Made by a program: the position numbers and the translations under genes. 64,000 nucleotides of DNA, taken from a virus (lineage: Duplodnaviria > Caudoviricetes). Every line of letters starts with the position of its first letter. Position 1 is the stretch's first letter. A model generated the notes under the pieces. It did no database searches. It saw only the letters and a program-made list of their open reading frames with translations, and was not told the DNA's origin. Of this stretch, positions 25,660 through 53,913 are shown one piece after another. The stretch lies in the IMG/VR virus record IMGVR_UViG_3300028603_000022, positions 1 through 64,000 of that record; one strand, written 5' to 3'.

Positions 25660-27945
25660 ATGCGAACAATCAAGAACGTCACTTTGGCTTCCAATAAAAC
25701 AGGAAAGAGACTCTTTGTTCAAAAGGGTTCGGCTGGTTCTGTTGCTGAAGATTTCGCTGTAAAGTCCGCCGGCGAACCTTCTAAACAAACCGTTGGCGTT
25801 CTTGGTAATCGTACAGGTAATACATCTTCTGATAACTATGATAGAGTAGAATCGCCTTTAGATAAAATAAAATCTAACAAGGTTTTAAGAGACAAAGCTT
25901 CTCGTAGGCTGGATACTATTGATCCTTATTCTTCTGAAGCTGTAGAATTATCTGCAATAATAGGATCAGAAGATACGACAACAGTTCTTGATAGACATAA
26001 TAGAGCTGTTGAAACAGCAGATGAGCTGCCTGCTATGGGTTCTAACGCTGGTGGACTGTCTGGTAATCTTCCTTCTAGTTCTACAGTTACCGACGTAGTT
26101 ACTAGAGGAATGCTAATAAACGTAATTGATGATATTATCTACGATAAGAATCCATACAGAGCTAATATAGCTCTGAACCGCATTCTTCGTGATATGTTTT
26201 ATCATGATTCTACTACGGGATCAGCTGTTAATCTTCTTAGCACATTACCATTCTCGGAATTTTCTCTTTCAGGTTTGAAAGACGAAAAGATGACTTCTGT
26301 TTTTGTCGATTCTCTTGAGTCGATGAAAATTAACGCTCTTCTACCTAATATGTCCATTGATTATCTGGTAGTTGGTTCTGCCATTGTGTCGCTTACTTAC
26401 GACGAAAAGATAAAAAGATTTACAGGTTCTTTTCCACATAATATTGATTTTGCTTACTTCATTCAGGTGCCTTCTTATGGTATAGATCCTATCATCAAGG
26501 TCAGATTAGAACCACATATTGCTGGGGCTCTAGAAAACCCAACTATTAAAGAAAAATATCTACAATACATTCCTAAGCAGATAGTCGATTTTTATTCAAA
26601 GGGTGGTAGAGACGGAAAAGGTGGCGGTGATGGGTTTGAACTAGACCCAAAGACTTCTATCTTTATTGCGCGTAATGGTACTCTTAGAGATTTCCGAGGT
26701 ATCTCTCTCTTGAAAAGAGCTATACCAGCTTGGTTATACGAGAAAGCTCTTATTAAAGGAACACTGGATCAGTCTTATAAGCGTCAACGTCCTATTATGC
26801 ACGTTACCGCCGGTGAAGGAGAAGAATGGGTTCCAGTTACCGAGGAAATGCAAGCTATTTCCAACATGTTTCTAGCAGCAGACCTCGATCCTCTAGGAGC
26901 AATTGTTGTTACTAGGCAAGGCGTCAATGTAAATGAGGTGCGAAGCGGACAGGATTTTTGGAGATGGGATCAGAACTACGACGCTATTGAAAGAATAAAG
27001 CTTCGCTCTATAGGTATTTCAGAGTCATTTGTGGCTGGTGACGCCGCGTACAACAGCCTTGAGCAGACTATTTCTGTTTTCATGGATCAGATTAGAGCTT
27101 ATCGTAATCAGTTTACTTCTGAAATTTTCTATGAGAAAATTTTTCCCATGATTTCAGAAGCTAATGGTATTACTAAACAAAGATATGGTATTAAACGAGA
27201 TAGAGAAGTAGCTTCATACGGTAATACCAGAATTTATAGAGACGAAGATAATCAGATCGTAGCCAGTATTGGAAATTCGTATCCGCAAGTAAAAGAGCTT
27301 GGGGCATTATCTAAATCAAACGTAGACGTAAGCCGGTTAGTTGTACCAGAAATCCTCTGGCATAAAAGATTGATGCCTGAAGCTGATGAAGCTTACATTA
27401 ACATGTTGGGTGCTCTTCATGAAAAGGGAGTACCTATTACTATCCGTCAATGGACAGCTGCCGGTGGCTTGAATCTTGATAACCTACTTGAAGACTTAAA
27501 CGAAGATCTAAGAGTACGTGAGCAGATTGTCAATTACAGAAAATCTATTACTGACCTAATGAAAGAAGCCGGTATGGGGTCAGAAGAAGAAGATCCCGGT
27601 AGTTCTTCTCAAGCTTTTGGTGAATTTGCTTCCTCTAGTTCTCCTATATCCAGAGCCATAGATCAGATGGTTAACGATAGGTTTAACATTGGTTCTGTAA
27701 GGAAGCGCTCAATTCTATCTTATGGTAATCCAGATCATCCTAACGCTAATTTTACTGATTATGATTCTCAAGGTAATCGCAGAGTTATGACCAAACAAGG
27801 TCGTGATATTATAGCTAACAGGTTTACCAAAAATCTGGCTAAAGCTGCCGCTGAAATGGCTAAACTGGAAAACAAACGAACTAAAGAAGAAGAATGGCAG
27901 CGTAATCAAAGGCTAGATAAGAAGAAATATTATCATAGCAAATAA
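25660..27945 (+). CDS. Portal protein
   Basis: 761 aa at the start of the head module; RDMFYHD..GSAVN, RGISLL and GISESFV portal-type patterns. Confidence 0.7.
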   Translation: MRTIKNVTLASNKTGKRLFVQKGSAGSVAEDFAVKSAGEPSKQTVGVLGNRTGNTSSDNYDRVESPLDKIKSNKVLRDKASRRLDTIDPYSSEAVELSAIIGSEDTTTVLDRHNRAVETADELPAMGSNAGGLSGNLPSSSTVTDVVTRGMLINVIDDIIYDKNPYRANIALNRILRDMFYHDSTTGSAVNLLSTLPFSEFSLSGLKDEKMTSVFVDSLESMKINALLPNMSIDYLVVGSAIVSLTYDEKIKRFTGSFPHNIDFAYFIQVPSYGIDPIIKVRLEPHIAGALENPTIKEKYLQYIPKQIVDFYSKGGRDGKGGGDGFELDPKTSIFIARNGTLRDFRGISLLKRAIPAWLYEKALIKGTLDQSYKRQRPIMHVTAGEGEEWVPVTEEMQAISNMFLAADLDPLGAIVVTRQGVNVNEVRSGQDFWRWDQNYDAIERIKLRSIGISESFVAGDAAYNSLEQTISVFMDQIRAYRNQFTSEIFYEKIFPMISEANGITKQRYGIKRDREVASYGNTRIYRDEDNQIVASIGNSYPQVKELGALSKSNVDVSRLVVPEILWHKRLMPEADEAYINMLGALHEKGVPITIRQWTAAGGLNLDNLLEDLNEDLRVREQIVNYRKSITDLMKEAGMGSEEEDPGSSSQAFGEFASSSSPISRAIDQMVNDRFNIGSVRKRSILSYGNPDHPNANFTDYDSQGNRRVMTKQGRDIIANRFTKNLAKAAAEMAKLENKRTKEEEWQRNQRLDKKKYYHSK

Positions 27946-27956
27946 GGTGAAGATAT

Positions 27957-28406
27957 ATGGCAAAAATATCAAGATTCACCAAACATATAACCATAACATT
28001 TAATTCTGTTAGTAGTGATAGAGTAGCTTCTCTAGAAGACTATCTTGTATGGGAGATTGTTTATACAGGTGAACCGCTTCCAAGCCTTTCTGGTTTAGAA
28101 GAAGATAAATATGTAATAGTTTCACCTAGATTTAATAGCGACGGTATTACTGTACCTAGACTATTCTGGTTTCTGTACCCACCATGGGGGCACGCAGCTA
28201 CCAGAGCTGCTATTTTACATGATTATTTGCTGCATAGGTTAAAAACATTTCCGCATCCAAGAGTTTCTACAAGAAGATTGGCCGATAATATATTTTTTGA
28301 AGCCCTAAAAGCTTGTAGAGTTAACATAGTATCTTGTTATGTCTTATGGGGTGCCGTAAGGCTATTTTCTATTTTTAAATCAATTAATAATGTGAGTTTA
28401 AAATGA
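27957..28406 (+). CDS. DUF1353 family protein
   Basis: FNSDGITVPRLFW..PP....AAILHDYL, ADNIFFEA. Confidence 0.85.
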   Translation: MAKISRFTKHITITFNSVSSDRVASLEDYLVWEIVYTGEPLPSLSGLEEDKYVIVSPRFNSDGITVPRLFWFLYPPWGHAATRAAILHDYLLHRLKTFPHPRVSTRRLADNIFFEALKACRVNIVSCYVLWGAVRLFSIFKSINNVSLK

Positions 28407-30049: not shown

Positions 30050-30066
30050 ATAATGGGATATTTTCT

Positions 30067-30519
30067 ATGTTAGAGCTGGCTAGAAAATTAGAAGATAGAA
30101 GTAAATGGCCGGGTACTTACGCTTCTTTACATATTACCCGTACATCCAAAGCTAGGCTCTATAATTACTTTAAAGAGCACATTCCTAGACTACAAAATCA
30201 AGATAAATTCCATATAACTACCACGCATACTAAACGTATTTTAGACATACAAACTAGAATAGTAACGGTTAACTTGTATTCTAGACATTTTAAATACGAG
30301 AAATTCGGTGAAACTGTTTTAGTTCTTAGAGTTAAACATCAAATACTAGAAAAGCTGTTTATAGAATCCAAGAAAGCTGGAGCTACTTGGGATTTTCCTT
30401 CATACAAGCCACATATTACTCTGTCTACTGAATTTCCTTCTGATATTGCTAACCTACCTCCATTACCTGATTTTAATCTATACACAACTAAACATGTTGT
30501 AGAGCCGTTGGACGATTAA
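30067..30519 (+). CDS. acb1: Anti-CBASS Acb1-like (T4 57B-like) 2H phosphodiesterase
   Basis: GTYASL, FHITTT and GATWDFPSYKPHITL (two HxT motifs). Confidence 0.75.
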   Translation: MLELARKLEDRSKWPGTYASLHITRTSKARLYNYFKEHIPRLQNQDKFHITTTHTKRILDIQTRIVTVNLYSRHFKYEKFGETVLVLRVKHQILEKLFIESKKAGATWDFPSYKPHITLSTEFPSDIANLPPLPDFNLYTTKHVVEPLDD

Positions 30520-33073: not shown

Positions 33074-34417
33074 TTGTTGGCTACTTGGTGGAAAAATCTT
33101 TCTTTGGATGAAAAGAAAGCTTATCTTAAAGAACACCCTAACTCGAAAAAGAAGATTTCTACGCCTAAAAAGGTTTCTTCCGGTGGGAATGCCCAACCTC
33201 GACGTAAACTTTCTGAATCTGAAAGAGAAAGAGCTTTAAAATATTTAAAAACTAATGGGTATACTGTTAAGCAAGCAGTTTCTGGTTCTTTAGATGAAAT
33301 GCAACGCAATTTTGAAACCAAAATTGAGCGTCTAGAAAATAAACAAGTCACTAATCTGTATAATAATACAGTTAAAGCCGTTAAACTAGATTCCAAACAC
33401 GCTATATCTAATACAAAGCAATTATTATCTGTATATGGATTTGTATTATTAGCTTCTGTAGCTCTATCTGTGGTAGTTGGGGCTGATGTATCTACCTCTG
33501 CTGCTCATATAGTTGGTGGATTCGGCGATGAAATTAAAAATCATACTCGCGATGTTATGCAAGAACTTAAAGCTCTAGACGAAGAAGAGGCTCAACAAGA
33601 ATTTCAAAATGACGCTGAGAGGGATAAATATAAAGCAGAAATGGCTGAACGCCGCCGTAGAGCTAAAATAGCTTACCTTAAGCGGGTTCATGAAGATATG
33701 ATGGCTAAGGCTAAAGAAAATCTAGATGATCCCGATAAAGTAACAGAATCCCTTAGAAAATCAGATAAGCCAGTTACTCCATCAGCTAATGTATCTACTG
33801 AAACAGCAAATACTTTTAGAAGCTCAAATATAAAGAACACTGTTATGAAAGAAAAGATTTCTATTACTTCCTCACATGAAACTGATCTTCTTAAAGCTCT
33901 AATAAAGCTAGAGAAGGCTGACATTGAAAGTAAAGAAGACGATTCTCATGAGAATCTTTTAGATCATATTGATTACCTAGAGAGCTGTATACCTACAGCA
34001 GCTACTATAATGGTGGCGTCTATAGGAAAGCCGTCTATTCTTACACGAGCTAAATACATGCTCAACAAGTGTAATGAAGAACTTGCTGCCTCCAAAATCT
34101 TACTTAATAAATCTGCTGAAAAGGCATCACTAAAAAAGTCTTCCTTGGATTTCTTTCTTAAAAAGAATCTTAAACCTAAAGAGTATAGATACGAACAGGC
34201 TTATGTTTTAGATAATGAAGAAATAAAAGCTTGTGAACACCACATACTTAATGGTGTTGAAACAGCTTCTTATACTCATAATAAAATAGAAATATATAGC
34301 TTTGTTGAGGGTAATACGATTAATCTATCTTTGGTAAAGGATTCAAACTTTATGCCCAAATCCTTTTCAAGTATTAAACCAAGAGAATTAGCTGCTTGGT
34401 TGAAAGAACATATCTAA
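33074..34417 (+). CDS. Putative internal head protein
   Basis: WW..LS...K.YLKEHPNSK N-terminal module, a hydrophobic segment and several E-x-A sites. Confidence 0.55.
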   Translation: MLATWWKNLSLDEKKAYLKEHPNSKKKISTPKKVSSGGNAQPRRKLSESERERALKYLKTNGYTVKQAVSGSLDEMQRNFETKIERLENKQVTNLYNNTVKAVKLDSKHAISNTKQLLSVYGFVLLASVALSVVVGADVSTSAAHIVGGFGDEIKNHTRDVMQELKALDEEEAQQEFQNDAERDKYKAEMAERRRRAKIAYLKRVHEDMMAKAKENLDDPDKVTESLRKSDKPVTPSANVSTETANTFRSSNIKNTVMKEKISITSSHETDLLKALIKLEKADIESKEDDSHENLLDHIDYLESCIPTAATIMVASIGKPSILTRAKYMLNKCNEELAASKILLNKSAEKASLKKSSLDFFLKKNLKPKEYRYEQAYVLDNEEIKACEHHILNGVETASYTHNKIEIYSFVEGNTINLSLVKDSNFMPKSFSSIKPRELAAWLKEHI

Positions 34418-34429
34418 GGTAATTTCGCT

Positions 34430-35545
34430 ATGGAAATTAACAAAGGTAAGCAATATACAATCGGTACAAAGTTCTCCTATAAAGGAGCGCCGGCGGTGTT
34501 CAATCAACCGCCGCTATGGACTATATATACTGAAACAGACGATTCTCTGTTATCACAACCTGCTTTACAGGTAGGTAACAGATGGAATGCGGTATTCACC
34601 ATACCTACAAACTATATCGTACCAAACGGTAAAGAAGATTTAACCATACAATTTCATGGTACTGACAGCAAAGGACGTACCTACGTAGCGGATAAACTAT
34701 TAACTATTTTTGATAACACAGAGTTTTTTACACCTAATGGGGTGTTTTTTAACTACATAACTGATGAAAGTATAGAAGACTATTTAATAACCAATAGTGA
34801 TGAAGCAGATTTTGATATCCGAATATTTGATTCGTTTGGGGAACAGGTTCAGCATACCTCTCTAACTAATCAAACTGCGGTATCGGCTAACTCTAATGGT
34901 TATAAATATGATTTTAATCTACCACCTTTGGTAATAGATAAGAATGTCTGGCTAGACCCTTTTAATATTGTATATCGTATTACAACAGCTTCTGGAACAT
35001 ATACAGAAACTCATCCACTATTCATTCTAGACTTCAAAGTCATCAATGTAGTTAATGAACTACAAACTATGTTGGATAAATCCAAGCTAATAGAAGTCGA
35101 TCCTTCTCTACAATGGCATAATGTAGAGCTTATTCAAGCTGTTCTAGCAGGAGTAAAAAGGATTAATGCTTCTCCGCCGGAAGTTACTTTGTGGAAGCTT
35201 CACGATTTCCCTAGCGGACTAGACAGGTTTCTTACTATCGCCGCGGCTATTTATTCTCTTGAATCCAGATTCCTAGCAGAAGGTCTTAATGCTTTCGATT
35301 TCCAAGGATTAAACTCACAACTAAACTATAATAGAACTGAATATCTATCTCAATTGTTGGATAGGTATAACGCAGTTCTAGACCAATTACCGCTAGCTAA
35401 GAAATCCGCAATATTAACAAATGGTAAGGGTGAAATAGCTGGTAATGAAGTAGACAAAAGAGTACGTAATATCGGAACATTGGGTCTAGGTGTTAATACT
35501 CTTAATAACCGAATAGGGTATAATCGCTTTAGGCGGTTCTACTAA
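34430..35545 (+). CDS. Putative head-tail adaptor/neck protein with Ig-like N-terminus
   Basis: C-terminal adaptor-like pattern (RINASPP...FDFQG..LNYNR); structural context. Confidence 0.5.
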   Translation: MEINKGKQYTIGTKFSYKGAPAVFNQPPLWTIYTETDDSLLSQPALQVGNRWNAVFTIPTNYIVPNGKEDLTIQFHGTDSKGRTYVADKLLTIFDNTEFFTPNGVFFNYITDESIEDYLITNSDEADFDIRIFDSFGEQVQHTSLTNQTAVSANSNGYKYDFNLPPLVIDKNVWLDPFNIVYRITTASGTYTETHPLFILDFKVINVVNELQTMLDKSKLIEVDPSLQWHNVELIQAVLAGVKRINASPPEVTLWKLHDFPSGLDRFLTIAAAIYSLESRFLAEGLNAFDFQGLNSQLNYNRTEYLSQLLDRYNAVLDQLPLAKKSAILTNGKGEIAGNEVDKRVRNIGTLGLGVNTLNNRIGYNRFRRFY

Positions 35546-35569
35546 ATTCTCAACTTAGAGGTATATAAA

Positions 35570-36361: not shown

Positions 36362-36364
36362 TAA

Positions 36365-36397
36365 AAAGAGGGTTGGTAATAACTACCAACCCCTTTC
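36365..36397 (+). terminator. Intrinsic terminator-like hairpin
   Basis: GGGTTGGTA...TACCAACCC stem. Confidence 0.6.
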
Positions 36398-36414
36398 CTG
36401 TCAGGAGAAGTCAT

Positions 36415-37968: not shown

Positions 37969-37975
37969 TTAAACT

Positions 37976-42600: not shown

Positions 42601-44247
42601 GAAGAAGTGATAAGACAGTTTGAAACTAACCCAACTAATATTATTCTATGCGCAACGGAAGGCAGCGTTCGAGAAGGGCTAAACCTTCAGATGACTTCGC
42701 TCATCTGCCGTTTGCAGAGCGTTTGGTCGCCAGGGGAACATAAACAAGTACGCGCTCGTATGTATCGTCCTGATCCTCGTGGCAAGTACAACCGCGATTC
42801 AGTTCGTCATGTCTGGATCATGACTCGTCTACCTAACAACCAGCCTACACTAGACGGAGTTAAAATCGCTCGTCTAGTGTCTAAATACGTATCTAATGCT
42901 AGACTTACCTATGAAGGTAGGATGGAATGGCGTAGGGTTTCCGCTGAATTTGACGAATTGAAGATGTTGAAGATGAACCTTCAACTTATCTTCCATTCAA
43001 GAGATTACGATCTGGAACCTTATTTCCAAGCTTGGAAGACATATGTTAATTGGGAAAAAGACCTTAACAAGCAAGCTAAGCGTAGGATGGCTGAAAAGCT
43101 TGAACAGGAAAACGATGTAGACCTGTTAGACGATAAAGGTAATATTACGGACATTAACAAGTTCATTCAGCTTGCTATGTACGGTGTAGAGTCTACTTAT
43201 AAGATTCCAGGCTCTAAACGTGTCTACGTACCGTTTATTCGTAATGCGTTGCCAGCTGACCCTAATAACTATGGGTTTTCTGTTCTAGGTAATAACGATA
43301 TTCCAGTAGGGACCGTTATATACACTGAATTTGGACCGGCTGTAGTTAAAGCTTCTATGAAGAAGGCCGTGAAAGTTCAATTGTATAATGGCCGTACCGT
43401 GTCTTTGAAAAAAGGTACTGTTCACGTAGCAGCCCCTTCCAAGTACAAGGAGTTCGCTAAAGTAGTTAAAGACCCGGTTAAGTGGCGTAATGAGTCCTTC
43501 GATCCCCACGGTGTTAAGGGTCTAGCCAAGGTAGAAAAAACCAAGATTAAGGATGAAGAAGAAGTTATCGAGGCTCTAGAAGATAATCTAGAGTCCGAGG
43601 ACATGGATGAAGTTGAAATCTTCGCCGGTATGCTTAACAGTTGGCCAGCCCTTATTATCGATGAAGATATTAACGAATTGAAAAATCTAGAAGGCTGGAA
43701 TCGTATTGATCCGTTTACTTCTATCACTTTCCGTAGCTGGGCTGCGGCAGAAAAACTGATCGAACTCCTTGACAGTAAGATGCATATTTCTGATAAGGTA
43801 TATGATGCTCTTATGGAAGAAATGGAAGAAATCCGTGAAGGTAAGGCTATGAGACTTACCAAACAAATTAATCCTCAAAAGTTTAGAAACTTCTTCCTAG
43901 ATCAAAAGAAGCGTCTTGGTAGAACCAAAAATGGTAAGGTCATCGTCAATCCTTATTGGATAGTTAACGATGAAAAGGTTCTTCTAGCGTTCGACACAAA
44001 CAGTCACGATCCCAACTTTATTTCTTGGTTGAACCGCAACAGAGCTAAATTCCCCGGCGTTGTCAAGATTACTAAGAACGACGCTATGTGGATTAACATA
44101 TTCAAGTCTGTCCGTGAAGCTATGCAAGACCTCAAGAACCTTACCAAGATAAGGTCTATCGATGTTGAACAAATTAAACGTGATCTGGTAGATGTTAAGG
44201 ATGAAATTCTTAAATTGAAGCGCCCCCGTAGTCGTCCTAACATGTAA
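39694..44247 (+). CDS. Large SNF2/SF2 helicase
   Basis: LLPHQ, STGGGKT, DESH, MSGT, NKVIVF, EGLNLQ, Q..ARMYR. Confidence 0.9.
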   Translation: MEAINAERSDFETEFQLPETAARRPNVGTKFTSPMEMVKKNLYGIVLNANALFRLGIMGSLLNDQMNEEFSTIDMSNVIGFDLSPYAQPITADRLRETAMVKPGNGKSKPISIEFTESLFNIGGEIVERIMKLYPEGIDKGITLSAFFQHIYNMNISGTVMTALTPSLDTFKDTYLDPLDDFVEFKIKIVTPEYSESTHTVNLDFTLSIELEADIYPEVIDSEEFSAYLVYLWVYNSLRLTKNRLNKIVDPRKVSAHKNSMLKLGPIRPKVNKSGFAIHGSGNPIFIPPTRDIMEQFIKTANSCIDEDGVFRRDFLVDEHKLGDAIIYVDWVNDILAYTTSTGILSTYNLGDVAPFDPVTEYNFLSTPLKSNYLMPITTILTESFKDIEGENAAKFTTNEEVKRILRDLPAVRIYTNIVNATNASDAIDACLYHVCGGQLDELEDTPGLIELVMALKCLIKYLNELRKSDKEALKLPSSMRSQGIIHRLIGVEYVLRAIDKYDDKVIETYRQAWRTETAKFKSDPSVRTFDIPNIKVGKGGLTGLLPHQGRILSSAIKSPQQSIKSVSTGGGKTIISIVQSIFGIVNTKTIPMILTKANLIRGTITEINQICKGEINAIPFTPITLRRMARISGIDTFAKLLKWYQTLPKNTILVGSYSSLASRRKLYSDLDIVDGFCEFSVPTTQFMLIIKLLGIRFVSGDESHMIKNPESARSRNSYAIFSHADNRDVMSGTIVSNTVPDLVGQSRAISPYIFGDDPVAFADRYGLSAGLIKSDADAKKIKDRLKATVAYHEANEEDWAYMLPAMDDEIMFANMTPLQHEFYNLLMQEAELMLIELEKSKKKIKAEEDDDEEDEEDDDEGDNADGDDEEEARIVAAAKVHLQKVEMFLVAPDSNEQYMQWERKPSGEDLVSPKVREADKLIEAHVLKHRDDLPNNKVIVFGWNIVSAEHFMRHSKFASKSLHYTAGNEEVIRQFETNPTNIILCATEGSVREGLNLQMTSLICRLQSVWSPGEHKQVRARMYRPDPRGKYNRDSVRHVWIMTRLPNNQPTLDGVKIARLVSKYVSNARLTYEGRMEWRRVSAEFDELKMLKMNLQLIFHSRDYDLEPYFQAWKTYVNWEKDLNKQAKRRMAEKLEQENDVDLLDDKGNITDINKFIQLAMYGVESTYKIPGSKRVYVPFIRNALPADPNNYGFSVLGNNDIPVGTVIYTEFGPAVVKASMKKAVKVQLYNGRTVSLKKGTVHVAAPSKYKEFAKVVKDPVKWRNESFDPHGVKGLAKVEKTKIKDEEEVIEALEDNLESEDMDEVEIFAGMLNSWPALIIDEDINELKNLEGWNRIDPFTSITFRSWAAAEKLIELLDSKMHISDKVYDALMEEMEEIREGKAMRLTKQINPQKFRNFFLDQKKRLGRTKNGKVIVNPYWIVNDEKVLLAFDTNSHDPNFISWLNRNRAKFPGVVKITKNDAMWINIFKSVREAMQDLKNLTKIRSIDVEQIKRDLVDVKDEILKLKRPRSRPNM

Positions 44248-44275
44248 TTTCTATTTTAGATATAAGAGCATTGAT

Positions 44276-46075
44276 ATGTCAAATTATAAAGATTTTGTAT
44301 CTAGACAACTTGAGAGTATGGAGGTAGCTAGTCTACCTCCTACTCAATATACTAAATTAGGAGCTTATCTTCTTGCTAAAGGATTGGTAGTTTTAGCTGG
44401 TAATGGGGAAGGTAAAACCTACGCGGAACGTAACGCCGTCATAATGAAGGATTTGTTGAATCCAAGGTTCACTAAGAAATACGCTATACCAGAGAATTTT
44501 CATAAGTTTGACCCCTCTGGACCTGCTCTTTTTGTTAAGCCTCTTAAAGAGGCTATAAAAATTATGGTGGAAGACCCTAAAGTATCCGCAGAAGAAGCTT
44601 CTCTTTTGAAATTCGCGGTCAACTTTATGGAGAACCCTTCTAAGACTCCTAACTATATAGAAAGAGCTAGAAAACACGCTGCTACTATAAGTGCTGCTTA
44701 TTATCGGAATTTTGAGAAAGTAGTTGGTAAAATTCAAGGTTCTACATCTGGTAATAAGTCAAATATCGTAGATTTACAGAGACAATTATCAGAGTTAGTA
44801 TCAGAAATTACAGGCAAGAAAGCTAAACCAGACGTTCTCAACGTACCTAATACTACAATTGTAGAAATGAGACGTTCAGGTGGGGACAACCTAGATAAGG
44901 CACGCCGATACGCTCAAATGCGTAGGGAGTTAGGAGCTTCTTATGATAAAGACCTAATAGGTTTTATCTCATCAAAGAATCCTAGTGTAGTAAAAATTCA
45001 AGACGCTTATACTTATATGGATAAGCTAGGGTATAAGATACATAAGATACCAAATGTAGCCAAAAGCATACCTCTTAAATTAGGTATGTCGCTAGGTAAA
45101 CCAAAGTTTTACACTGGTGATGACCGTCCTATAGCGCAGAATATTCCTTCTAATGCTAAAGATATCAAACTATCACCTAGATACGACCCTAAAACAGGGG
45201 CTGGAGGTTATCTAACCTATACTTCCGATGTAGCTGCAGGTATTACTAGGGTATACACAGAAGCCCATCAGAATCAATCAGCTTCTAAAATATCATCTGA
45301 CACCCAAGCTGTTACCACTAAGATGACTTCTGTGTTGTCTAGATGGAAAAAGGATTTAACATCTACTGATCCCATCAAGAAGATGGGCGCTACCGCCTCT
45401 GTCATGATTTACATGACAGCTATGCGAGTTGGAGCTAGACAGACTACAGCGGCAGCTCAATCTGGTGTAGCTACCTACGGAGCTATATCCCTTAGACCTC
45501 CTCATATAATTCTACGTAAGAATAGTATATTCCTTAAATATAAAGGAAAGGCAGCTAGTAAAACAGGACTGGAGCAGCAACATATTATTAAAGTTAATCC
45601 TGCTGATGGTCTTACTAAGCGAGTCTATCAGAATCTTGAAAAGCTTATGGCAGGGAAGAAGAAGACTGATCTTGTCTTCTCTGTCCCTAATAAGAACAAA
45701 AATAAGAAACCTGTTGTTTTAACGTATGCTGCCTATATTCAGTATCTAAAAGACTCCGGTTATCCCGCTGGACCGCATAAGATGCGTAGAGTTCGCGGTA
45801 CTAACCTAATGATCGATCTTCTAAAGAAAGAAAAGTTCAACCTTTCTGTTAAAGCTTCCGGTAATCTTTCTAGGTCGCAGAAGGAAGGTGAACAGTTTGT
45901 TATTGAAAAGATTCTAACTCCTATTGCCATCTTGTTAGGACATAAGTCCGGTACAGGAGCTACGTTGTGGCGTACTACCGTGAAAAGTTATGTCGAAGTT
46001 AAGCCTCTTATTGACTTCTTCCAGAAGCAGGGTCTTAGAGCACCGAAATGGCTTCCGAAGAAGGCGTCAGATTAA
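44276..46075 (+). CDS. DNA topoisomerase IB-like protein with N-terminal extension
   Basis: MRVG, TYGA..L, YKGK, HKMRRVRGT, LGH...KSYV catalytic pattern. Confidence 0.75.
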   Translation: MSNYKDFVSRQLESMEVASLPPTQYTKLGAYLLAKGLVVLAGNGEGKTYAERNAVIMKDLLNPRFTKKYAIPENFHKFDPSGPALFVKPLKEAIKIMVEDPKVSAEEASLLKFAVNFMENPSKTPNYIERARKHAATISAAYYRNFEKVVGKIQGSTSGNKSNIVDLQRQLSELVSEITGKKAKPDVLNVPNTTIVEMRRSGGDNLDKARRYAQMRRELGASYDKDLIGFISSKNPSVVKIQDAYTYMDKLGYKIHKIPNVAKSIPLKLGMSLGKPKFYTGDDRPIAQNIPSNAKDIKLSPRYDPKTGAGGYLTYTSDVAAGITRVYTEAHQNQSASKISSDTQAVTTKMTSVLSRWKKDLTSTDPIKKMGATASVMIYMTAMRVGARQTTAAAQSGVATYGAISLRPPHIILRKNSIFLKYKGKAASKTGLEQQHIIKVNPADGLTKRVYQNLEKLMAGKKKTDLVFSVPNKNKNKKPVVLTYAAYIQYLKDSGYPAGPHKMRRVRGTNLMIDLLKKEKFNLSVKASGNLSRSQKEGEQFVIEKILTPIAILLGHKSGTGATLWRTTVKSYVEVKPLIDFFQKQGLRAPKWLPKKASD

Positions 46076-46124
46076 TTATATACCTAGAAGAATAGTACCA
46101 TTAATTAGAGGAACAAAACTAGTT

Positions 46125-46394
46125 ATGAACTATCTACGTTGGGTAAAAGAAACAGCCGCGAATGTAGTAGACATGAATGCTTTCAAGGCTAAAATTAAAC
46201 ATAAAAAACAGAAAGAAGTAGAGAAAGAGCTTAGAGAGTTAGGTATAACACTTACTCATTTGTCTAATACAGGTGAATATAGAGTTAATTACAAACACGG
46301 TAGGGAAGCTACCGCTTACTACACTGATGATCTACAGGACGCAGCCTTAACAGGTTTTGCGCTATCACAACATAATAACCCTTATCCATCGTAA
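46125..46394 (+). CDS. Small putative internal head protein
   Basis: ATG at 46125; leader MNYLRWVKETA; GEYRVN..AYYTDD..DA..T domain. Confidence 0.65.
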   Translation: MNYLRWVKETAANVVDMNAFKAKIKHKKQKEVEKELRELGITLTHLSNTGEYRVNYKHGREATAYYTDDLQDAALTGFALSQHNNPYPS

Positions 46395-46403
46395 AGTAAT
46401 ACT

Positions 46404-48371: not shown

Positions 48372-48716
48372 ATGGGTTATTTCTCTAAAGTTTTAGAAGT
48401 AGCAGGTAGACCACCTAAAACAGATCTTGAAAAACATATTAACGCTATCAACGGTAGTGATCTTTTCGATCTATACTACTCCAGCAAACCTTATGGGTCT
48501 GATACTCATGTAGAAACTACTAGAGATAAAGCTAACAGGCTTATGGATTATTTGGAGAAAAAAGGTTACAAGTCCAATAGACTACCAGATTCTTATCTAG
48601 GCCGATATGAAGTTATTGAGTCTGTAGAGCTTAAAAAGCGGGGAATTAAGGGTAATATTAAAATTACCAGTGTACCCTACTACGATCATTTAGCTAAAAT
48701 TCTTATTGAAGTTTAA
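48372..48716 (+). CDS. Putative internal head protein
   Basis: Leader MGYFSKVLEVA. Confidence 0.6.
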   Translation: MGYFSKVLEVAGRPPKTDLEKHINAINGSDLFDLYYSSKPYGSDTHVETTRDKANRLMDYLEKKGYKSNRLPDSYLGRYEVIESVELKKRGIKGNIKITSVPYYDHLAKILIEV

Positions 48717-48730: not shown

Positions 48731-49519
48731 ATGTCTGATCTTAAAGAGCTGATTTCCAGCATGATTAGTAGAAATACCAATGACAGCTTGAATAGAGATC
48801 GGGCAAAAGTTAGTCTGATTGAATCCGCGTCATTCGGTACTGAAACTCCTATTGACGCACATAAAACTCCAGAAATAGGTAAACATCTGGAAGTTCAATC
48901 ATGGCTACCTATGGCATCACAGGTCTACAACATATCCCCTAATATCAAGGACTACGTTGTAGTACCTGTGATTATTATGCCTAGCGACCTTCCGAACCGC
49001 AATTCAGTAAGTTTCCCCCATGAGACCTTAATAGGCTTTAATCCTATTCAGGGTCGTCTTAATTATAAGACGTGGGCTGGTAAACCCGCGTATTCTGAAC
49101 ATAACCATTTCAAGATGGAAGAAGCTAAAGGTATTGTTTTCGATACCTATATGTCTAAATTAAACCACGCTAAGGGTAACTTATTTAAAGTGACCGCACT
49201 ATGTGGATTTGATCGTACTAAGGACTATGGATTAGCTCAGGAAATCCTTACTGGTAGACGTAAATCTTATTCTATGGGTGCTTTCGTCTCTCAGTATGAA
49301 TGCTCTATCTGTGGTGATTTATCTAAACGAGGTAAACTTAATACAGAATGTGGCCACGTAATTAGAGGTAAGCCTAAATTCTACGAAACTAAATACGGTT
49401 ATCTTCCTAGTTATTTGTTAGCTCGTATTGGTATTGAAGGATTTGAAGTATCTTCCGTTACTGTTCCAGCTTGGTCTTCTGCTGTGAACTCCAATATTAT
49501 GGATTTAGCTAAGGTTTAA
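48731..49519 (+). CDS. Prohead maturation protease (assemblin/HK97-type fold)
   Basis: PNRN, SEHNH (His), YSMGA (Ser), CSICG..C.H, FEVSSV..PAW; upstream of scaffold and capsid genes. Confidence 0.8.
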   Translation: MSDLKELISSMISRNTNDSLNRDRAKVSLIESASFGTETPIDAHKTPEIGKHLEVQSWLPMASQVYNISPNIKDYVVVPVIIMPSDLPNRNSVSFPHETLIGFNPIQGRLNYKTWAGKPAYSEHNHFKMEEAKGIVFDTYMSKLNHAKGNLFKVTALCGFDRTKDYGLAQEILTGRRKSYSMGAFVSQYECSICGDLSKRGKLNTECGHVIRGKPKFYETKYGYLPSYLLARIGIEGFEVSSVTVPAWSSAVNSNIMDLAKV

Positions 49520-49523
49520 GTTT

Positions 49524-49991
49524 ATGGGCTACTTAAAACATCTTGAAAAAGCTTTTATCAATATGGGTGACGGAGAAGATCTTCGAATTTCTTCTACCGA
49601 AGAACTAGCTAAGAGAGTTATAACCATAATTCGTAAAACCCTAACTAATAACGGTCTTTATTATTCCAATGCAAAACAAAGTGCTATGTATTGGATTAGA
49701 TTTTCAGAGAAACCTATTAAGACCAACAAAGATTTACATAATAATAAACTTATCTATTCAGTAGAAGGTTGGCACGGTACTGGTTCAGGTAACAGAAATT
49801 ATGGTTCAAGTTTTACCATTTTTGACATTACCAGTCATCAAAATAACAAAACCTTTACAGTATTAGACTCATTATCTGTAAATGCGGGATTAGCTAAGTT
49901 TAACAGTTATGCGGATAAACGGAGTTATATAACTAATCTTAATAAGCTCGAACAATTAGCAAAACAAAACAAACTAGATTCCCTATTTTAA
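49524..49991 (+). CDS. Putative internal head protein
   Basis: Leader MGYLKHLEKA and EELA. Confidence 0.6.
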   Translation: MGYLKHLEKAFINMGDGEDLRISSTEELAKRVITIIRKTLTNNGLYYSNAKQSAMYWIRFSEKPIKTNKDLHNNKLIYSVEGWHGTGSGNRNYGSSFTIFDITSHQNNKTFTVLDSLSVNAGLAKFNSYADKRSYITNLNKLEQLAKQNKLDSLF

Positions 49992-50209: not shown

Positions 50210-51640
50210 ATGCCAAAGAAATTTCCAAAACTGGCGGAGACGCTCAAGGATTGTGCGTTCCCCGTTATGATGTTTCTTTCTACGAGTGAGGTCGCGAGTC
50301 AGAAGACGATTCTTCGTGCGTTCTCTGATGGTAAGGGTTTGAATCTTGTGTCTAACATTGACAAGATTTACAATCCTGTTACTGGCGATCTTCTACCTTA
50401 CATTGAAAAGTCCCAGCAGGAATGTACAGGCGATGACTTCCAACAGCTAGATAATCTAGTGGCTATTCGTACCGATGACGATGTTGTTTTTGGTGTTGAT
50501 ATAGACCTAGCTTTTGATCTTGGTGGTGAAGAAGGTTACTGTCCTCTTACTGGTAAGGAAACTGCTTTTCACTACGCGGAGGCTGCCGATTCTGATACTG
50601 ACGATTCCGATAATGAAGACGAGTTTGAAAATATCGACGATTCTTTAAACTCGGATGAGGAATACTCGGACGATGAAGAAGCTGTTATTTTCAATGACGA
50701 CGAAGCTGACGAAAATAGCGACGAAGAAGAAGTCGTGGCGTCAAATGTTGACACTACTGATTCCGATGATTCGGAAACTGCTTCGGAAGAAGTAACTGCT
50801 GAAGTCCCTGTGGAAACTCCTACTGTCGAACAGGAACCTGTTCAGGAACAGGCTTCAGAAGAAGTAATTAACGATGGCACTGTTCAGGAAATTCCTGCGA
50901 TGGCTATCGCTGACGATGAAGCTAACCTTAAGCTGGTTACTCTTACCAACGATAACAGTGAAATTGCTGCCTTCGTTGGCGAAACCCATGTTGGTACACT
51001 TCGTTGTTCTAGGGCTTCTGAGAAGGCTGCCCCACTGTTCTCTGATGGTAGCCGCCTTGTTCAGGCGTTTAAGCCTGTCTTCAATATGAATCGTAGTAAT
51101 CTGAACTCCTCGGAACTGGCTGCCTACGGTTACACGCCTGTTACTTTCAAGGTCAAGGTTGGCGATTTGTTCAACAAGCGTCTTGAAAAAGAAATAGCTT
51201 CTATCAATACTCAGGCAGAAGAAAAAGTCAAGTCATCTATTAATGGCATGGCCCGCCTTATTGAACTATCCTTCGTTGGTATCAATAAAGGTCTGTTCGA
51301 GTGTGATAATGAACTAGCCAATGAATTAGCGTCTCTACTTTCACGTAATGGTGTAAAGAACGCTAATCGTGAAGTTCGTCGTACTCTTGCGAAGCATTCT
51401 CATGGGTATATTAAAGCAGGCGTGGAAAAGGCTAAGGAGCTTTCTTCCAAGTCAGAAGATTATATCCAAGGTATCGCTGAAACTGTTTCCAAGTCCGAGT
51501 TTATCGGCAGTATCGATGATGATCGTACCGAAACAGCTTCCTATGTTCCACCAGTGTCAACAGTAGAAACAGCGGAGTTTATCGGAAATCCTCAAACTAA
51601 GAAGCCTGTAGTTAACAAGTACGCTAGGCTCTTTCGTTAA
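50210..51640 (+). CDS. Prohead scaffold/core protein
   Basis: Acidic, many E-x-A sites, lies between the protease and capsid genes. Confidence 0.65.
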   Translation: MPKKFPKLAETLKDCAFPVMMFLSTSEVASQKTILRAFSDGKGLNLVSNIDKIYNPVTGDLLPYIEKSQQECTGDDFQQLDNLVAIRTDDDVVFGVDIDLAFDLGGEEGYCPLTGKETAFHYAEAADSDTDDSDNEDEFENIDDSLNSDEEYSDDEEAVIFNDDEADENSDEEEVVASNVDTTDSDDSETASEEVTAEVPVETPTVEQEPVQEQASEEVINDGTVQEIPAMAIADDEANLKLVTLTNDNSEIAAFVGETHVGTLRCSRASEKAAPLFSDGSRLVQAFKPVFNMNRSNLNSSELAAYGYTPVTFKVKVGDLFNKRLEKEIASINTQAEEKVKSSINGMARLIELSFVGINKGLFECDNELANELASLLSRNGVKNANREVRRTLAKHSHGYIKAGVEKAKELSSKSEDYIQGIAETVSKSEFIGSIDDDRTETASYVPPVSTVETAEFIGNPQTKKPVVNKYARLFR

Positions 51641-52408: not shown

Positions 52409-53479
52409 ATGCGTATTAACCACCACCCTACTCCGGTTATTGAGTCAAGGTTTCGTAACTCCAACGATATGATCGTTGGGCGTAACGGTGAAATCAATGC
52501 CGGTTCTAAACAGGAACTTATGCAGCGTCTGGTAGACATTGCCAGCATGATTCAGGACGGTGAAGTCTTTGATTCGGACGGTGTTCGTCAGGATCGTAAT
52601 ACAATCCGTGCAGAAAAGGCTGCGGCCATCCGTGAAGCTATCCATTCTCCTAAGGATTGGGCTGAACTAGGCTCTGCTATCGCGGCAGATATCGACGTTC
52701 GCCTCGAAAGAGACGGTTTCATGCGTTCGGTCTTCTTCCGTGGTGATGTTCAGGAAGGTTCCGTTCCTCGCGTTCGTATCAAGGAACGTCATGTTACCGC
52801 CGTTCGTTCACGCGGCGTTGGGATGATTTATCCGCAGTACGTCCGCGATACGTATCTCTTTGCGGAAGAGTTCTATGTTACTGCAACTCCCCGTGTTGAA
52901 CTTATCGAGATTCATCAGGGTAACAGCGACGTTCTTGAGGAAAAGTATTTCCAAGGTCTTGAACAGATTTTCGTTCAGGAAGACAAGCACGTTGTCAACA
53001 TGATGCGTACTGCTGACGGTATGTACAATGATATTACATACTTCAATGGTACTTGGTCGCAGACTAACCTCGTTGCGGTCAAGGAAAATGTTGACCGCTG
53101 GAGGATTCCGGCTACAACCTGTATAGCAGCCATTGACCTTATCAATGACGCCATCGGCGGTAGCAACTTCTCACAGTGGTTTGATCCGGTTACTAAGTGG
53201 GAAATCATCAAGTCTGGTCGTATCGGTAATCTTCTAGGTATGTCCATTCTTACCGATGGTTATCGTGATCGTAACCTGCAGGTTCTTGAGCGTGGTGAAT
53301 TTATCGTCTGTGGCGCTCCAGAGTTCCTTGGTGCATACACTGATCGTGGTCCGGTTAATGCTACTCCGATTGACGAGTATGAAAAGTTTGTTCCGGCTCG
53401 TGGTTGGTCTCTTAACGAGGTTATTTCGGCTACTCTTGGTAATGCCAAGGCCGTTGCTCGTGGTAAGCGTAATCAGTAA
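52409..53479 (+). CDS. Major capsid protein
   Basis: 356 aa, HK97-like (QEDK, GRIGNLLGMSILTD), strongly biased codon use, followed by a terminator. Confidence 0.8.
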   Translation: MRINHHPTPVIESRFRNSNDMIVGRNGEINAGSKQELMQRLVDIASMIQDGEVFDSDGVRQDRNTIRAEKAAAIREAIHSPKDWAELGSAIAADIDVRLERDGFMRSVFFRGDVQEGSVPRVRIKERHVTAVRSRGVGMIYPQYVRDTYLFAEEFYVTATPRVELIEIHQGNSDVLEEKYFQGLEQIFVQEDKHVVNMMRTADGMYNDITYFNGTWSQTNLVAVKENVDRWRIPATTCIAAIDLINDAIGGSNFSQWFDPVTKWEIIKSGRIGNLLGMSILTDGYRDRNLQVLERGEFIVCGAPEFLGAYTDRGPVNATPIDEYEKFVPARGWSLNEVISATLGNAKAVARGKRNQ

Positions 53480-53491
53480 CCTTTAATGATA

Positions 53492-53524
53492 AGGGTGGTA
53501 GTGGCAACATTACCACCCTATTAT
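53492..53524 (+). terminator. Intrinsic terminator after the MCP
   Basis: AGGGTGGTAGTG-gcaa-CATTACCACCCT. Confidence 0.75.
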
Positions 53525-53547
53525 ATTTTGTGCTAGGGAACCGAAAT

Positions 53548-53913
53548 ATGATTTCTTCACTTGATAAAGTAAAGGCTATGTTAGTAGCAGCGTGTGATTC
53601 TTGTCATCAGAATAACCGCGATATAGCTATGAACATGATGGAAATAGCTTTGGATGAACTTCAAAGTATGAATCCACAGGACGTAGAAGATAGTATTCAA
53701 ATTGTTTCGGTTGTAGACGGTGATCCAGTCGATAGTATTATTGAATCTGCTTGCTTCAATGACGAGTTTGAGGACGAAGAAACTGTTAACATGGATACCC
53801 TGTTAGATAGTGAAACTGCGAATACAGTTGCTAGTAACGTTCAATCATTGACAGATGATGCGGCTAGACAAGTTTTCCGTGAGTCCATTATGAAAATGTT
53901 TGTTCAAGCCTAA
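53548..53913 (+). CDS. Acidic hypothetical virion protein
   Basis: ATG at 53548; ESA and ETA sites. Confidence 0.55.
   Translation: MISSLDKVKAMLVAACDSCHQNNRDIAMNMMEIALDELQSMNPQDVEDSIQIVSVVDGDPVDSIIESACFNDEFEDEETVNMDTLLDSETANTVASNVQSLTDDAARQVFRESIMKMFVQA

What the first reader, a model, noticed from the sequence alone, without database searches (positions are those of the whole stretch)
25660..53913. E-x-A cleavage code and short N-terminal leaders suggest a capsid cargo-loading system
Seen: many late-arm proteins carry E-x-A followed mostly by S/A/N/R. Examples are portal (VETA-D, REVA-S, GEFA-S), 35570 (EETA-S, KEMA-S, VEVA-S, SEVA-A), scaffold (about ten sites), protease (IESA-S), 33074 and 53548. 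Several non-structural enzymes begin with a short leader ending in the motif: MLELA (Acb1), ...QLPETA (SNF2), MSNYKDFVSRQLESMEVA (topo IB), MNYLRWVKETA, MGYFSKVLEVA, MGYLKHLEKA. Known: T4 internal proteins use a cleaved capsid-targeting leader (MKTYQEFIAE), T4 and phiKZ proteases cut after Glu, and herpes assemblin cuts A|S. Inference: the protease at 48731 cuts after Ala in E-x-A, and the M-x-Y...E-x-A leader directs enzymes into the head for injection.
Basis: partly seen in the sequence, partly recalled or inferred. Interest (0 to 1): 0.85.

Follow-up and report, generated by a model that had tools for sequence, protein, structure and literature searches.

The report
Phage head-protease code and cargo tag
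An uncultured 174-kb phage and three relatives mark their head proteins, and a changing set of unrelated proteins, with a Glu-x-Ala motif and a 10-13-residue start tag ending in it; this probably works like phage T4's capsid-loading signal but with a different cutting rule, though no cutting or packaging has been measured.

Summary
E-x-A is the most over-represented of about 1,350 residue-pair motifs in the head region (85 seen, 46 expected). E-x-A-[SANR] occurs 44 times against 12 expected, and the replication arm, the tail module and the rest of the genome show no excess. Three related uncultured phages, with proteases 56-87% identical, show the same rank-1 result. About 75 more distant head modules and three cultured relatives do not.

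A tag, M-x(1-2)-Y-[LIF]-x-x-[LVI]-...-E-x-A, starts seven genes in this genome. They fall into six families that are unrelated apart from the tag. The tag also starts further unrelated genes in the relatives, including Acb1. One tagged protein has an ADP-ribosyltransferase fold that begins right after the Ala.

The protease at 48731 has the T4 gp21/herpes assemblin fold (Z 10.3). T4's [LI]-x-E rule is not met.

Best reading: a T4-like prohead-core system with a clade-specific E-x-A|S code. Cleavage, the cut position and packaging are inferred, not shown.

This scan has already noted T4-type ([LI]-x-E) leader systems on other phage DNA.

The parts
48731..49519 (+). Prohead protease, 262 aa, with the T4 gp21/herpes assemblin fold. 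H124 and S181 are invariant. A CxxC...CxH insert lies at 191-209. An IESA|S site at aa 31-34 sits in a disordered N-terminal stretch.
   Evidence: phrog_18299 'head maturation protease', E 8.6e-68. Model pLDDT 84.5, residues 15-36 below 50. T4 gp21 5jbl: Z 10.3, rmsd 2.8, 138 aa aligned; herpesvirus proteases Z 6.2-7.2. Invariant residues from a 48-sequence alignment.
50210..51640 (+). Acidic scaffold/core-like protein (476 aa, pI 4.3) with 15 E-x-A sites. The sites at aa 27, 251, 302, 328 and 406 are kept in all four genomes.
   Evidence: 15 against 4.6 expected, and 10 E.A[SAN] against 1.05. Conservation. Composition. It lies between the protease and the capsid gene, as T4 gene 22 does (T4 gene order from established knowledge).
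52409..53479 (+). Major capsid protein. Its single E-x-A (RAEKA|AA, aa 69-71, nt 52613-52621) fits removal of an N-terminal propeptide of about 71 aa.
   Evidence: phrog_2522, E 6.7e-61. The site is kept in 3 of 4 genomes; the fourth (G001) has ETA|S about 12 alignment columns upstream instead.
25660..27945 (+). Portal protein with E-x-A sites at aa 118, 361, 516, 655 and 732. REVA|S at 516 is kept in all four genomes.
   Evidence: phrog_16240, E 2.6e-131. Sites.
48372..48716 (+). Tagged protein of 114 aa, function unknown. Tag MGYFSKVLEVA, nt 48372-48404.
   Evidence: No Pfam or PHROG match.
49524..49991 (+). Tagged protein of 155 aa, function unknown. Tag MGYLKHLEKA, nt 49524-49553. The G001 ortholog starts MSGYLDILEKA.
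46125..46394 (+). Tagged protein of 89 aa. Tag MNYLRWVKETA, nt 46125-46157. This is the likely true start inside ORF 45990-46394.
   Evidence: The G003 ortholog starts MNYIRYINETA one codon after a stop. phrog_7884, function unknown.
19711..20175 (-). Tagged protein of 154 aa, outside the stated range. Tag MSGYFKHVNPETA. A truncated paralog lies at genome position 137392.
30053..30519 (+). Acb1 (anti-CBASS 2H phosphoesterase, ORF 30067-30519). ATG GGA TAT TTT at 30053 encodes MGYF in another frame. One base fewer than the G003 ortholog separates it from MLELA.
   Evidence: PF23474 Acb1, E 4.4e-16, 59.4 bits against a cut-off of 27. Sequence. Orthologs start MRYIEMLELA (G003) and MMAYLDFLKKKELA (G001, 313 aa, Acb1 E 4.4e-20).
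44276..46075 (+). Topoisomerase IB-like protein. E-V-A|[SN]-L-P at aa 16-18 (nt 44321-44329) is kept in all four genomes while the preceding leader varies.
   Evidence: PF01028, E 1e-11. Alignment.
39694..44247 (+). SNF2-family helicase, 1517 aa. P-E-T-A|A at aa 19-21 (nt 39748-39756) is kept in 3 of 4 genomes.
   Evidence: PF00176 and PF00271. phrog_21391. Alignment.
39090..39521 (+). Protein of 143 aa with E-x-A at aa 16-18, kept in all four genomes. This suggests an 18-aa N-terminal propeptide.
33074..38704 (+). Block holding four E-x-A-rich proteins of unknown function (33074, 35570, 36373, 37976), which are candidate core or internal proteins cut at several sites. A connector-like protein (34430, one site) lies among them.
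   Evidence: E.A observed/expected: 10/3.6, 5/1.8, 11/4.7 and 4/1.4. Sites kept in all four genomes: 35570 aa 101 and 183, 36373 aa 203 and 433, 37976 aa 110 and 119. 34430 matches phrog_17327, connector.

Best explanation
This phage clade builds its head the way T4 does, around a core that a gp21/assemblin-fold protease (48731) later digests. Its recognition code, however, is Glu-x-Ala followed by a small residue (most often Ser), not T4's [Leu/Ile]-x-Glu.

The code marks the acidic scaffold-like protein (many sites), the capsid-protein propeptide, the portal, the protease's own N-terminus and a block of unknown head proteins.

A portable N-terminal tag of 10-13 residues, M-x(1-2)-Y-[LIF]-x-x-[LVI]-...-E-x-A, acts like the T4 capsid targeting sequence. 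[quoted passage not shown] The proteins would remain in the head and enter the cell with the DNA.

Likely cargo includes small unknown proteins, ADP-ribosyltransferase-fold proteins and, in relatives, Acb1. Topoisomerase IB, the SNF2 helicase and gene 39090 have conserved N-terminal E-x-A sites and are probably processed head-internal proteins as well.

Shown here: motif statistics, replication in relatives, positional conservation, portability of the tag, and the protease and ADP-ribosyltransferase folds. Inferred: that the protease cuts these sites, that it cuts after Ala (P3 Glu, P1 Ala, P1' small), and that tagged proteins are packaged and injected.
For: 1. E.A is rank 1 of about 1,350 pair motifs in the head regions of all four clade genomes (z 5.7, 6.2, 4.3, 5.9). 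In the rest of those genomes it ranks 148-811. By module, E.A[SANR] is 44 against 12.1 in the head region, with no excess elsewhere.
2. Negative controls: about 75 head loci with proteases at most 47% identical, plus Erwinia Y3, Vibrio GR11A and Rhizobium I42, show no E.A excess. None of their 1,447 ORFs starts with the tag.
3. E.A pairs are kept in distant orthologs at 51/149, against 19% for E.x or x.A controls. The conserved sites sit at capsid-protein aa 69, scaffold aa 27, protease aa 31, topoisomerase IB aa 16, SNF2 aa 19 and 39090 aa 16.
4. The tag lies at first Mets far more often than chance (p 8.5e-7 here, 9e-6 in G003). It sits on proteins with no similarity beyond it and is encoded with differing codons.
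5. The module boundary falls after Ala. Two adjacent genes share MRYLKYLELA and then diverge at once. A leaderless homolog, P0124, starts where the tag ends. In the model of the 114-aa protein, residues 1-8 are disordered and the fold starts at residue 11.
6. The protease has the gp21 fold (Z 10.3) and resembles herpes proteases (Z 6-7).
7. Position -2 relative to Glu shows no Leu/Ile bias, while +1 and +3 do carry information. A small P1' Ser is also preferred by SPN3US gp245 (PMC10052503).
8. In T4, diverse internal defence-countering proteins share only a capsid targeting sequence (PMC3012670).
Against: - There is no protein-level evidence of any kind. The phage is uncultured, and no virion proteome exists for it or for any clade member.
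- No cleavage rule is published for the nearest cultured relatives. The PaBG paper on that phage group, PMC7412058, mentions none.
- Without the three richest proteins, E.A falls to rank 7 (z 2.7) in the head region, so much of the signal comes from a few proteins.
- Some tagged genes lie far from the head module on the other strand (20175, 156375, 156719). Whether they are expressed late is unknown.
- The residue after the tag's Ala varies (A, S, G, F, M, K, L, T), which is looser than at internal sites.
- Known gp21-family proteases (T4, phiKZ, SPN3US) all cut after Glu, so a cut after the Glu of E-x-A cannot be excluded.
Confidence: 0.68

Rival explanations
1. The system is the same, but the protease cuts after the Glu (E|x-A), as T4 gp21, phiKZ gp175 and SPN3US gp245 do. 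Ala and the following small residue would then be P2' and P3' determinants.
For: All characterised members of this protease fold in phages cut after Glu (SPN3US motif A-X-E, PMC10052503; T4 LxE, PMC12991175). Glu is the invariant first residue of the motif.
Against: - The positions before Glu carry almost no information (0.11-0.29 bits), and there is no Leu/Ile or Ala/Ser/Gly bias at -2. This is unlike every known Glu-cutting relative, all of which read P3.
- The x position would be P1', yet it is mostly T, V, K or L rather than small.
- Tag and domain boundaries fall after Ala, not after Glu.
Confidence: 0.17
2. E-x-A is a processing or structural motif of the head proteins, but the Y-[LIF] tag is not a capsid address. 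It could bind some other partner (a chaperone, the membrane or a replication compartment), or be a translation or stability element. Tagged proteins would then not be packaged or injected.
For: Several tagged genes lie outside the head module on the opposite strand. There is no direct evidence of packaging.
Against: - The tag always ends in the same E-x-A that marks the head proteins.
- The tag occurs only in the clade that has the E-x-A code: 0 of 1,447 ORFs in relatives outside the clade.
- Tagged genes cluster around the portal, ligase and protease genes in all four genomes.
- Conservation is at the peptide level, not the nucleotide level.
Confidence: 0.1
3. The E-x-A excess is a by-product of composition or helix propensity in acidic, helical or repetitive head proteins, and the leaders resemble each other by chance or by shared descent.
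For: Much of the excess sits in three proteins. 50210 and 36373 have acidic, partly repetitive stretches.
Against: - Expectations were computed per protein from each protein's own composition.
- Homologous head modules of about 75 relatives show no excess.
- The +3 Ser bias is found only at head-region sites.
- Sites are positionally conserved above the controls.
- The leaders sit on proteins with no detectable similarity beyond the tag and lie at ORF starts (p 8.5e-7).
Confidence: 0.05

Closest known systems
Phage T4 prohead core: gp21 protease, gp22 scaffold, the capsid targeting sequence (MKTYQEFIAE) on IPI-III, and Alt, which is also loaded into the head and processed
   Same: - A gp21-fold protease is encoded beside the scaffold and capsid genes.
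- The scaffold-like protein carries many sites, and the capsid protein has an N-terminal propeptide of about 70 aa.
- A tag of about 10 residues is shared by otherwise unrelated proteins and ends in the protease motif.
- The cargo includes an ADP-ribosyltransferase-fold protein, as T4 packages Alt.
- T4's internal proteins are diverse defence-countering proteins that share only the targeting sequence (PMC3012670).
   Different: - The motif is E-x-A(-S), not [LI]-x-E.
- The tag has no sequence homology to the T4 one beyond a Tyr at position 3-4 and an amphipathic character.
- Pfam finds no family for the protease, which also has a Cys/His insert.
- The head module also holds SNF2, topoisomerase IB, NAD ligase and Acb1.
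phiKZ gp175 and SPN3US gp245 giant-phage prohead proteases, with their processed ejection and inner-body proteins
   Same: Many head proteins, including the portal and internal proteins, lose N-terminal propeptides. Some of these are short, at 20-24 residues. The rule reads P3-x-P1 with a Ser preference at P1' (PMC10052503).
   Different: Their rule is [A/S/G]-x-E with the cut after Glu. No short tag shared among unrelated proteins is described there. This phage belongs to another lineage, whose protease relatives include Erwinia Y3, Dickeya AD1 and Vibrio GR11A.
Herpesvirus assemblin (maturational protease; cuts [V/L/I]-x-A|S)
   Same: The fold is related (Z 6.2-7.2). The proposed P1 Ala and P1' Ser are the same as at herpes M and R sites (established knowledge). 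The scaffold is the main substrate.
   Different: P3 would be Glu rather than a hydrophobic residue. The protease is not fused to the scaffold. This is a phage system with N-terminal tags on cargo.
Phage P1 Dar system (DarA, Hdf, DarB and others packaged in the head to counter restriction)
   Same: Large enzymes that act on DNA, DarB among them (a helicase/methyltransferase, from my own knowledge), are loaded into heads and injected. The SNF2 helicase here is encoded in the head module and has a conserved N-terminal processing-type site.
   Different: P1 loading is ordered and depends on DarA/Hdf. The P1 papers (PMC9024508, PMC12810830) came up only in the literature search and were not read. 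No homology to P1 proteins was tested.

Membership tests
T4-type prohead-core / capsid-targeting-sequence system (functional class) | Protease of gp21/assemblin fold encoded in the head module | tested here: met
   5jbl Z 10.3, rmsd 2.8, 138 aa aligned; Foldseek probability 0.97-0.99. phrog_18299.
T4-type prohead-core / capsid-targeting-sequence system (functional class) | One short N-terminal tag shared by otherwise unrelated proteins and ending in the protease motif | tested here: met
   Seven genes in six families in this genome, and more in G003, G001 and G002.
T4-type prohead-core / capsid-targeting-sequence system (functional class) | The same motif marks the scaffold, the capsid-protein propeptide and the protease itself | tested here: met
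T4-type prohead-core / capsid-targeting-sequence system (functional class) | T4 cleavage rule [L/I]-x-E | tested here: not met
   No Leu/Ile bias two residues before the Glu. L.E and I.E are not among the enriched pairs in the head region.
T4-type prohead-core / capsid-targeting-sequence system (functional class) | Tagged proteins are physically present in proheads or virions, and the tag is removed | not testable with these tools
   Uncultured phage. No proteome exists.
T4 gp21 protease family by sequence (my expectation that Pfam holds a model for it is from memory, not checked) | Significant match to a curated protease model | tested here: inconclusive
   No Pfam family at E<=0.01 and no PDB sequence match. 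Similarity is seen only in structure. Invariant H124 and S181 lie 57 residues apart, against H85 and S140 in T4 (residue numbers from PMC12991175). No residue-level superposition was available.
Herpesvirus assemblin | Cleavage at x-x-A|S with P1 Ala | not testable with these tools
   The motif statistics are compatible (S 3x enriched after Ala), but the cut position is not measured.
Acb1 (anti-CBASS 2H phosphoesterase) | Match to PF23474 above its gathering score | tested here: met
   59.4 bits against a cut-off of 27. G001 ortholog 72.3 bits.
ADP-ribosyltransferase superfamily (114-aa tagged protein at genome 156375-156719, minus strand) | ADP-ribosyltransferase fold | tested here: met
   Model pLDDT 81.9. 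KptA/Tpt1 E 5e-4, probability 1.00. Z 9.1 to KptA, 9.0 to CC0527, then toxin-type transferases, DarT, PARP and Arr.
ADP-ribosyltransferase superfamily (114-aa tagged protein at genome 156375-156719, minus strand) | Catalytic H-Y-E-type residues and NAD-dependent activity | tested here: inconclusive
   Y15, H16 and E96 are invariant in only 5 sequences. Pfam matches to Tpt1 and DUF7002 are below threshold. Activity was not tested.

The most novel reading that the evidence does not exclude
A phage protease of the T4 gp21 fold has moved its P1 specificity from Glu to Ala (E-x-A|S). This would make it the first phage head protease with herpes-assemblin-like A|S cutting. Its substrates and a portable capsid-loading tag have co-evolved with it within one narrow clade. 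The tag would load a ready-made first-minute toolkit into the head for injection: an ADP-ribosyltransferase-fold enzyme, Acb1 in relatives and perhaps here by a -1 slip, and, through their own N-terminal sites, topoisomerase IB and an SNF2 helicase. Because host CBASS enzymes can sense T4-type proteases through LxE decoy loops (PMC12991175), the changed code could also be an escape from protease-sensing immunity.
Probability: 0.3. Interest if true: 0.8.

Novelty: new variant of a known kind. Interest (0 to 1): 0.62.

Why it matters
If it holds, three things follow.

1. Capsid-targeting tags plus protease codes would be shown to be a general, evolvable way for phages to choose what they inject. 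The code itself can be rewritten: here to E-x-A, with a probable Ala at P1 that bridges the T4 and herpesvirus proteases.

2. It gives a simple sequence rule for predicting injected proteins in uncultured phages. Here that rule nominates an ADP-ribosyltransferase-fold protein, Acb1, topoisomerase IB and a 1,517-aa SNF2 helicase as virion cargo. Packaged Acb1 or topoisomerase IB would be new for phages as far as I know. The literature search here was not aimed at that question.

3. Prohead proteases have recently been shown to trigger CBASS (PMC12991175). A clade with a changed protease code and a tagged Acb1 is therefore a natural test case for that arms race.

4. The tag could also serve as a protein-packaging handle, as the T4 sequence does (PMC3012670).

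Tried and rejected
- T4-type [LI]-x-E or phiKZ-type [SAG]-x-E rule: rejected. Positions before the Glu carry no such bias, and those pairs are not enriched.
- General enrichment of E-x-A in the first 10-20 residues of all proteins: not found. The 'leaders' of SNF2 and topoisomerase IB rest on ortholog conservation, not on that statistic.
- E-x-A as a property of the whole protease family: rejected. Erwinia Y3, Vibrio GR11A, Rhizobium I42 and about 75 IMG/VR loci show no excess, and pooled pair statistics revealed no obvious alternative code in them.
- A nucleotide-level signal behind the leader: rejected, because codons differ.
- Paralogy as the source of the shared leader: rejected, except for 20175/137392.
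- A published cleavage rule for relatives: none found. The PaBG paper has no protease data.
- Protease against PDB by sequence: nothing.
- Pfam and PHROGs for the tagged small proteins 48372, 49524, 20175 and the 325-aa protein: nothing significant. ESM Atlas gave only ADP-ribosyltransferase-type leads for the 325-aa protein.
- Search for a strain with an unbroken Acb1 tag: no match in metagenome contigs.
- Locus L122 (86% protease fragment) looks like a chimeric contig with bacterial genes and was not used.
Intermediate relatives seen only as proteins (P0004, P0007, P0011, P0021 and others) could therefore not be placed in genomic context, and the T-run at 30061-30064 could not be checked in reads.


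Full report
**What the window is.**
The window is the first 64 kb of a single 173,848-bp contig.

Genes 25.0-54.0 kb on the plus strand form a head module:

| Start | Product |
|---|---|
| 25660 | portal |
| 27957 | DUF1353 / tail-chaperone-like |
| 30067 | Acb1 |
| 32396 | AT-hook basic protein |
| 34430 | connector-like |
| 38706 | HNH endonuclease |
| 39694 | SNF2 helicase, 1517 aa |
| 44276 | topoisomerase IB |
| 46561 | NAD-dependent DNA ligase |
| 48731 | head maturation protease |
| 50210 | acidic scaffold-like protein |
| 51669 | virion structural protein |
| 52409 | major capsid protein |

The tail sheath (55367) and tube genes (57663, 58307) follow.

The protease's cultured relatives are jumbo and large myoviruses: Erwinia Y3, Dickeya AD1, Vibrio GR11A and Rhizobium RHph_I42, at 35-47% identity. 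In Y3 and RHph_I42 the NAD ligase, and in RHph_I42 also an annotated topoisomerase I, sit in the same head module.

**Check of the observation.**
Every quoted site exists. I compared observed counts with the expectation from each protein's own composition.

- E.A is the most enriched of 1,364 residue pairs (gaps 0-3) in the head region: 85 against 46.4, z 5.7. In the rest of the genome it is 180 against 161.
The left arm gives 8/5.5, the tail module 8/12.1 and the remainder 25/21.
- The richest proteins are 50210 (15 against 4.6), 33074, 36373, 30521 and 35570.
- Only head-region sites show flanking bias: T/V between Glu and Ala, and Ser (3x), Ala and Asn after Ala.
- Two residues before the Glu there is no Leu/Ile or Ser/Ala/Gly bias. 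The T4 and phiKZ rules therefore do not apply.

**Replication and controls.**
IMG/VR holds three relatives, with proteases 87%, 63% and 56% identical. I fetched their whole records as G003, G001 and G002.

- In each relative, E.A is again rank 1 of about 1,350 pairs in the head region (z 6.2, 4.3, 5.9). It is unremarkable elsewhere in those genomes (ranks 148-811).
- About 75 further head loci with proteases at most 47% identical, and the three cultured phages, show no E.A excess. The code is therefore specific to one clade and is not a general property of such head proteins.
- In alignments with the two distant relatives, E.A pairs are retained at 51/149 (34%), against 19% for E.x or x.A pairs.
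- Sites kept in all four genomes include scaffold aa 27, 251, 302, 328 and 406; portal aa 516; topoisomerase IB aa 16-18 (E-V-A-[SN]-L-P); 39090 aa 16-18; and sites in 35570, 36373 and 37976.
- SNF2 aa 19-21 is kept in three genomes. The capsid-protein site at aa 69-71 is also kept in three, and the fourth (G001) has ETA|S about 12 alignment columns upstream.

**The leader.**
I searched the six-frame translation with the pattern M-x(0-3)-Y-[LIFVM]-x(1-3)-[LIVMF]-x(0-4)-E-x-A. It has 8 hits in this genome. Six are at the first Met of an ORF of at least 60 aa (p 8.5e-7).

- In the window: 48372 (MGYFSKVLEVA), 49524 (MGYLKHLEKA), 46125 (MNYLRWVKETA, the likely true start of that gene) and 20175 on the minus strand (MSGYFKHVNPETA).
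- Beyond the window: 137392, and 156375 and 156719, which both start MRYLKYLELA.
- Apart from the 20175/137392 pair, the proteins share nothing beyond the tag, and the codons differ.
- The relatives carry the tag on other proteins. Examples are three consecutive genes in G003 (MNYIRYINETA, MRYIRYLEKA, MNYIRYIETA), of which the second is a homolog of window gene 28403, and the Acb1 orthologs of G003 and G001.
- None of 1,447 ORFs in the distant relatives starts with the tag. Tag and code therefore occur together.

**Where the tag ends.**
- The two adjacent MRYLKYLELA genes diverge immediately after the Ala.
- A leaderless homolog of the 114-aa protein starts at the position after the tag.
- In the AlphaFold model of that protein, residues 1-8 are disordered and the first strand starts at residue 11.
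- That domain has an ADP-ribosyltransferase fold. KptA/Tpt1 gives Foldseek E 5e-4 and Z 9.1, followed by CC0527, toxin-type transferases, DarT, PARP and Arr. T4 likewise packages the ADP-ribosyltransferase Alt (established knowledge).

**Acb1.**
PF23474 matches at 59.4 bits against a cut-off of 27. In the window the ORF starts MLELA at 30067. At 30053 the sequence reads ATG GGA TAT TTT C, that is MGYF, in another frame.

Compared with G003 (ATG CGG TAT ATT GAG ATG TTA GAA TTG GCC), one base is missing. Either the tag is broken in this genome or assembly, or a -1 slip on the TTTT run would yield MGYFSMLELA.

**The protease.**
A model built from 48 homologs (pLDDT 84.5) matches T4 gp21 best: 5jbl, Z 10.3, rmsd 2.8 over 138 residues. 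Herpesvirus proteases follow at Z 6.2-7.2.

- H124 and S181 are invariant. Their spacing resembles that of T4 H85 and S140, the residues named in PMC12991175.
- A CxxC...CxH insert lies at 191-209. It gave a weak hit to the L32 zinc ribbon.
- The IESA|S site lies in the disordered N-terminal stretch ahead of the fold.
- Pfam and PDB sequence searches found nothing.

**Mechanism proposed.**
A T4-like prohead core is digested by this protease at E-x-A sites, and the tag loads cargo into the core before being trimmed off. I favour a cut after Ala (P3 Glu, P1 Ala, P1' small) for four reasons:

- The information lies at Glu, at Ala and at the next residue, not before the Glu.
- The middle residue is often large or charged, as is typical of a P2 position.
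- Module boundaries fall after the Ala.
- Relatives with known rules read P3 and P1 and prefer Ser at P1' (SPN3US, PMC10052503; herpes A|S is established knowledge).

All of this is inference. A cut after the Glu remains possible.

**Comparison with what is known.**
[quoted passage not shown] The logic here is the same, with a new code and a new tag in an unrelated lineage of large myoviruses.

Earlier notes in this scan report many T4-type ([LI]-x-E) leader systems, and one Asp-type system, on other phage DNA. The kind of system is therefore not new; the E-x-A code is the new element.

CBASS enzymes have recently been shown to sense T4 gp21 through LxE loops (PMC12991175). That makes a changed code, together with a tagged Acb1, worth testing as an immune-escape route. 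This last idea is speculation.

**Verdict.**
- It is a new variant of a known kind.
- Interest is 0.62.

Noticed in passing
window 30053-30081: The Acb1 gene has an upstream ATG GGA TAT TTT (MGYF) that is out of frame with MLELA by one base relative to the G003 ortholog. The cause may be a real frameshift, a homopolymer assembly error, or a -1 slip site on TTTT that would yield both tagged and untagged Acb1.
   Followed up: partly
genome 155398-156719, minus strand (L006:1399-2720): Two adjacent genes both start MRYLKYLELA. The 114-aa product has an ADP-ribosyltransferase fold (KptA/Tpt1-like). For the 325-aa product there are only ESM Atlas leads to DarT, PARP and Arr.
   Followed up: partly
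window 49301-49357 (protease aa 191-209): The protease family carries a conserved CxxC...CxH insert that looks like a zinc ribbon and gave a weak hit to ribosomal protein L32. T4 gp21 (164-166 residues in 5jbl) is much shorter.
   Followed up: no
protease homologs P0058 and P0101: Some metagenomic homologs of the protease are longer (397-434 aa) and carry intein/Hint Pfam domains (PF14890, PF05203, PF01079). This suggests inteins inside the protease gene.
   Followed up: no
window 39694-48369; L009 (Erwinia Y3); L010 (Rhizobium RHph_I42): NAD ligase, and in RHph_I42 an annotated topoisomerase I, sit inside the head module between the portal and protease genes in distant cultured relatives too. 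Y3 has large unannotated proteins (1394 and 626 aa) where SNF2 and topoisomerase IB lie here. The enzyme block in the head module is therefore old, and older than the E-x-A code.
   Followed up: partly
genome 72652-73035 (+) and 91607-91882 (+), beyond the window: Two small proteins in the tail-side region begin MSGFTNYLENA|V and MSLENLVKKVMEPIESA|A. The E-x-A is conserved in the G003 orthologs. They may be further processed proteins or variant tags.
   Followed up: no
window 13849-16028: The ORF at 13849-14655 (minus strand) starts MTGVDRNMRFYPSDLSDEQWELIEPLIP, which looks to me like an IS5-type transposase. It lies in a stretch of higher G+C (0.44 against about 0.35 around it). This was not tested with any family search.
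   Followed up: no
L122 (ERZ869909 contig, 13.6 kb): An 86%-identical protease fragment sits at the end of a contig that otherwise encodes bacterial housekeeping-like proteins. It is probably a chimeric assembly.
   Followed up: partly
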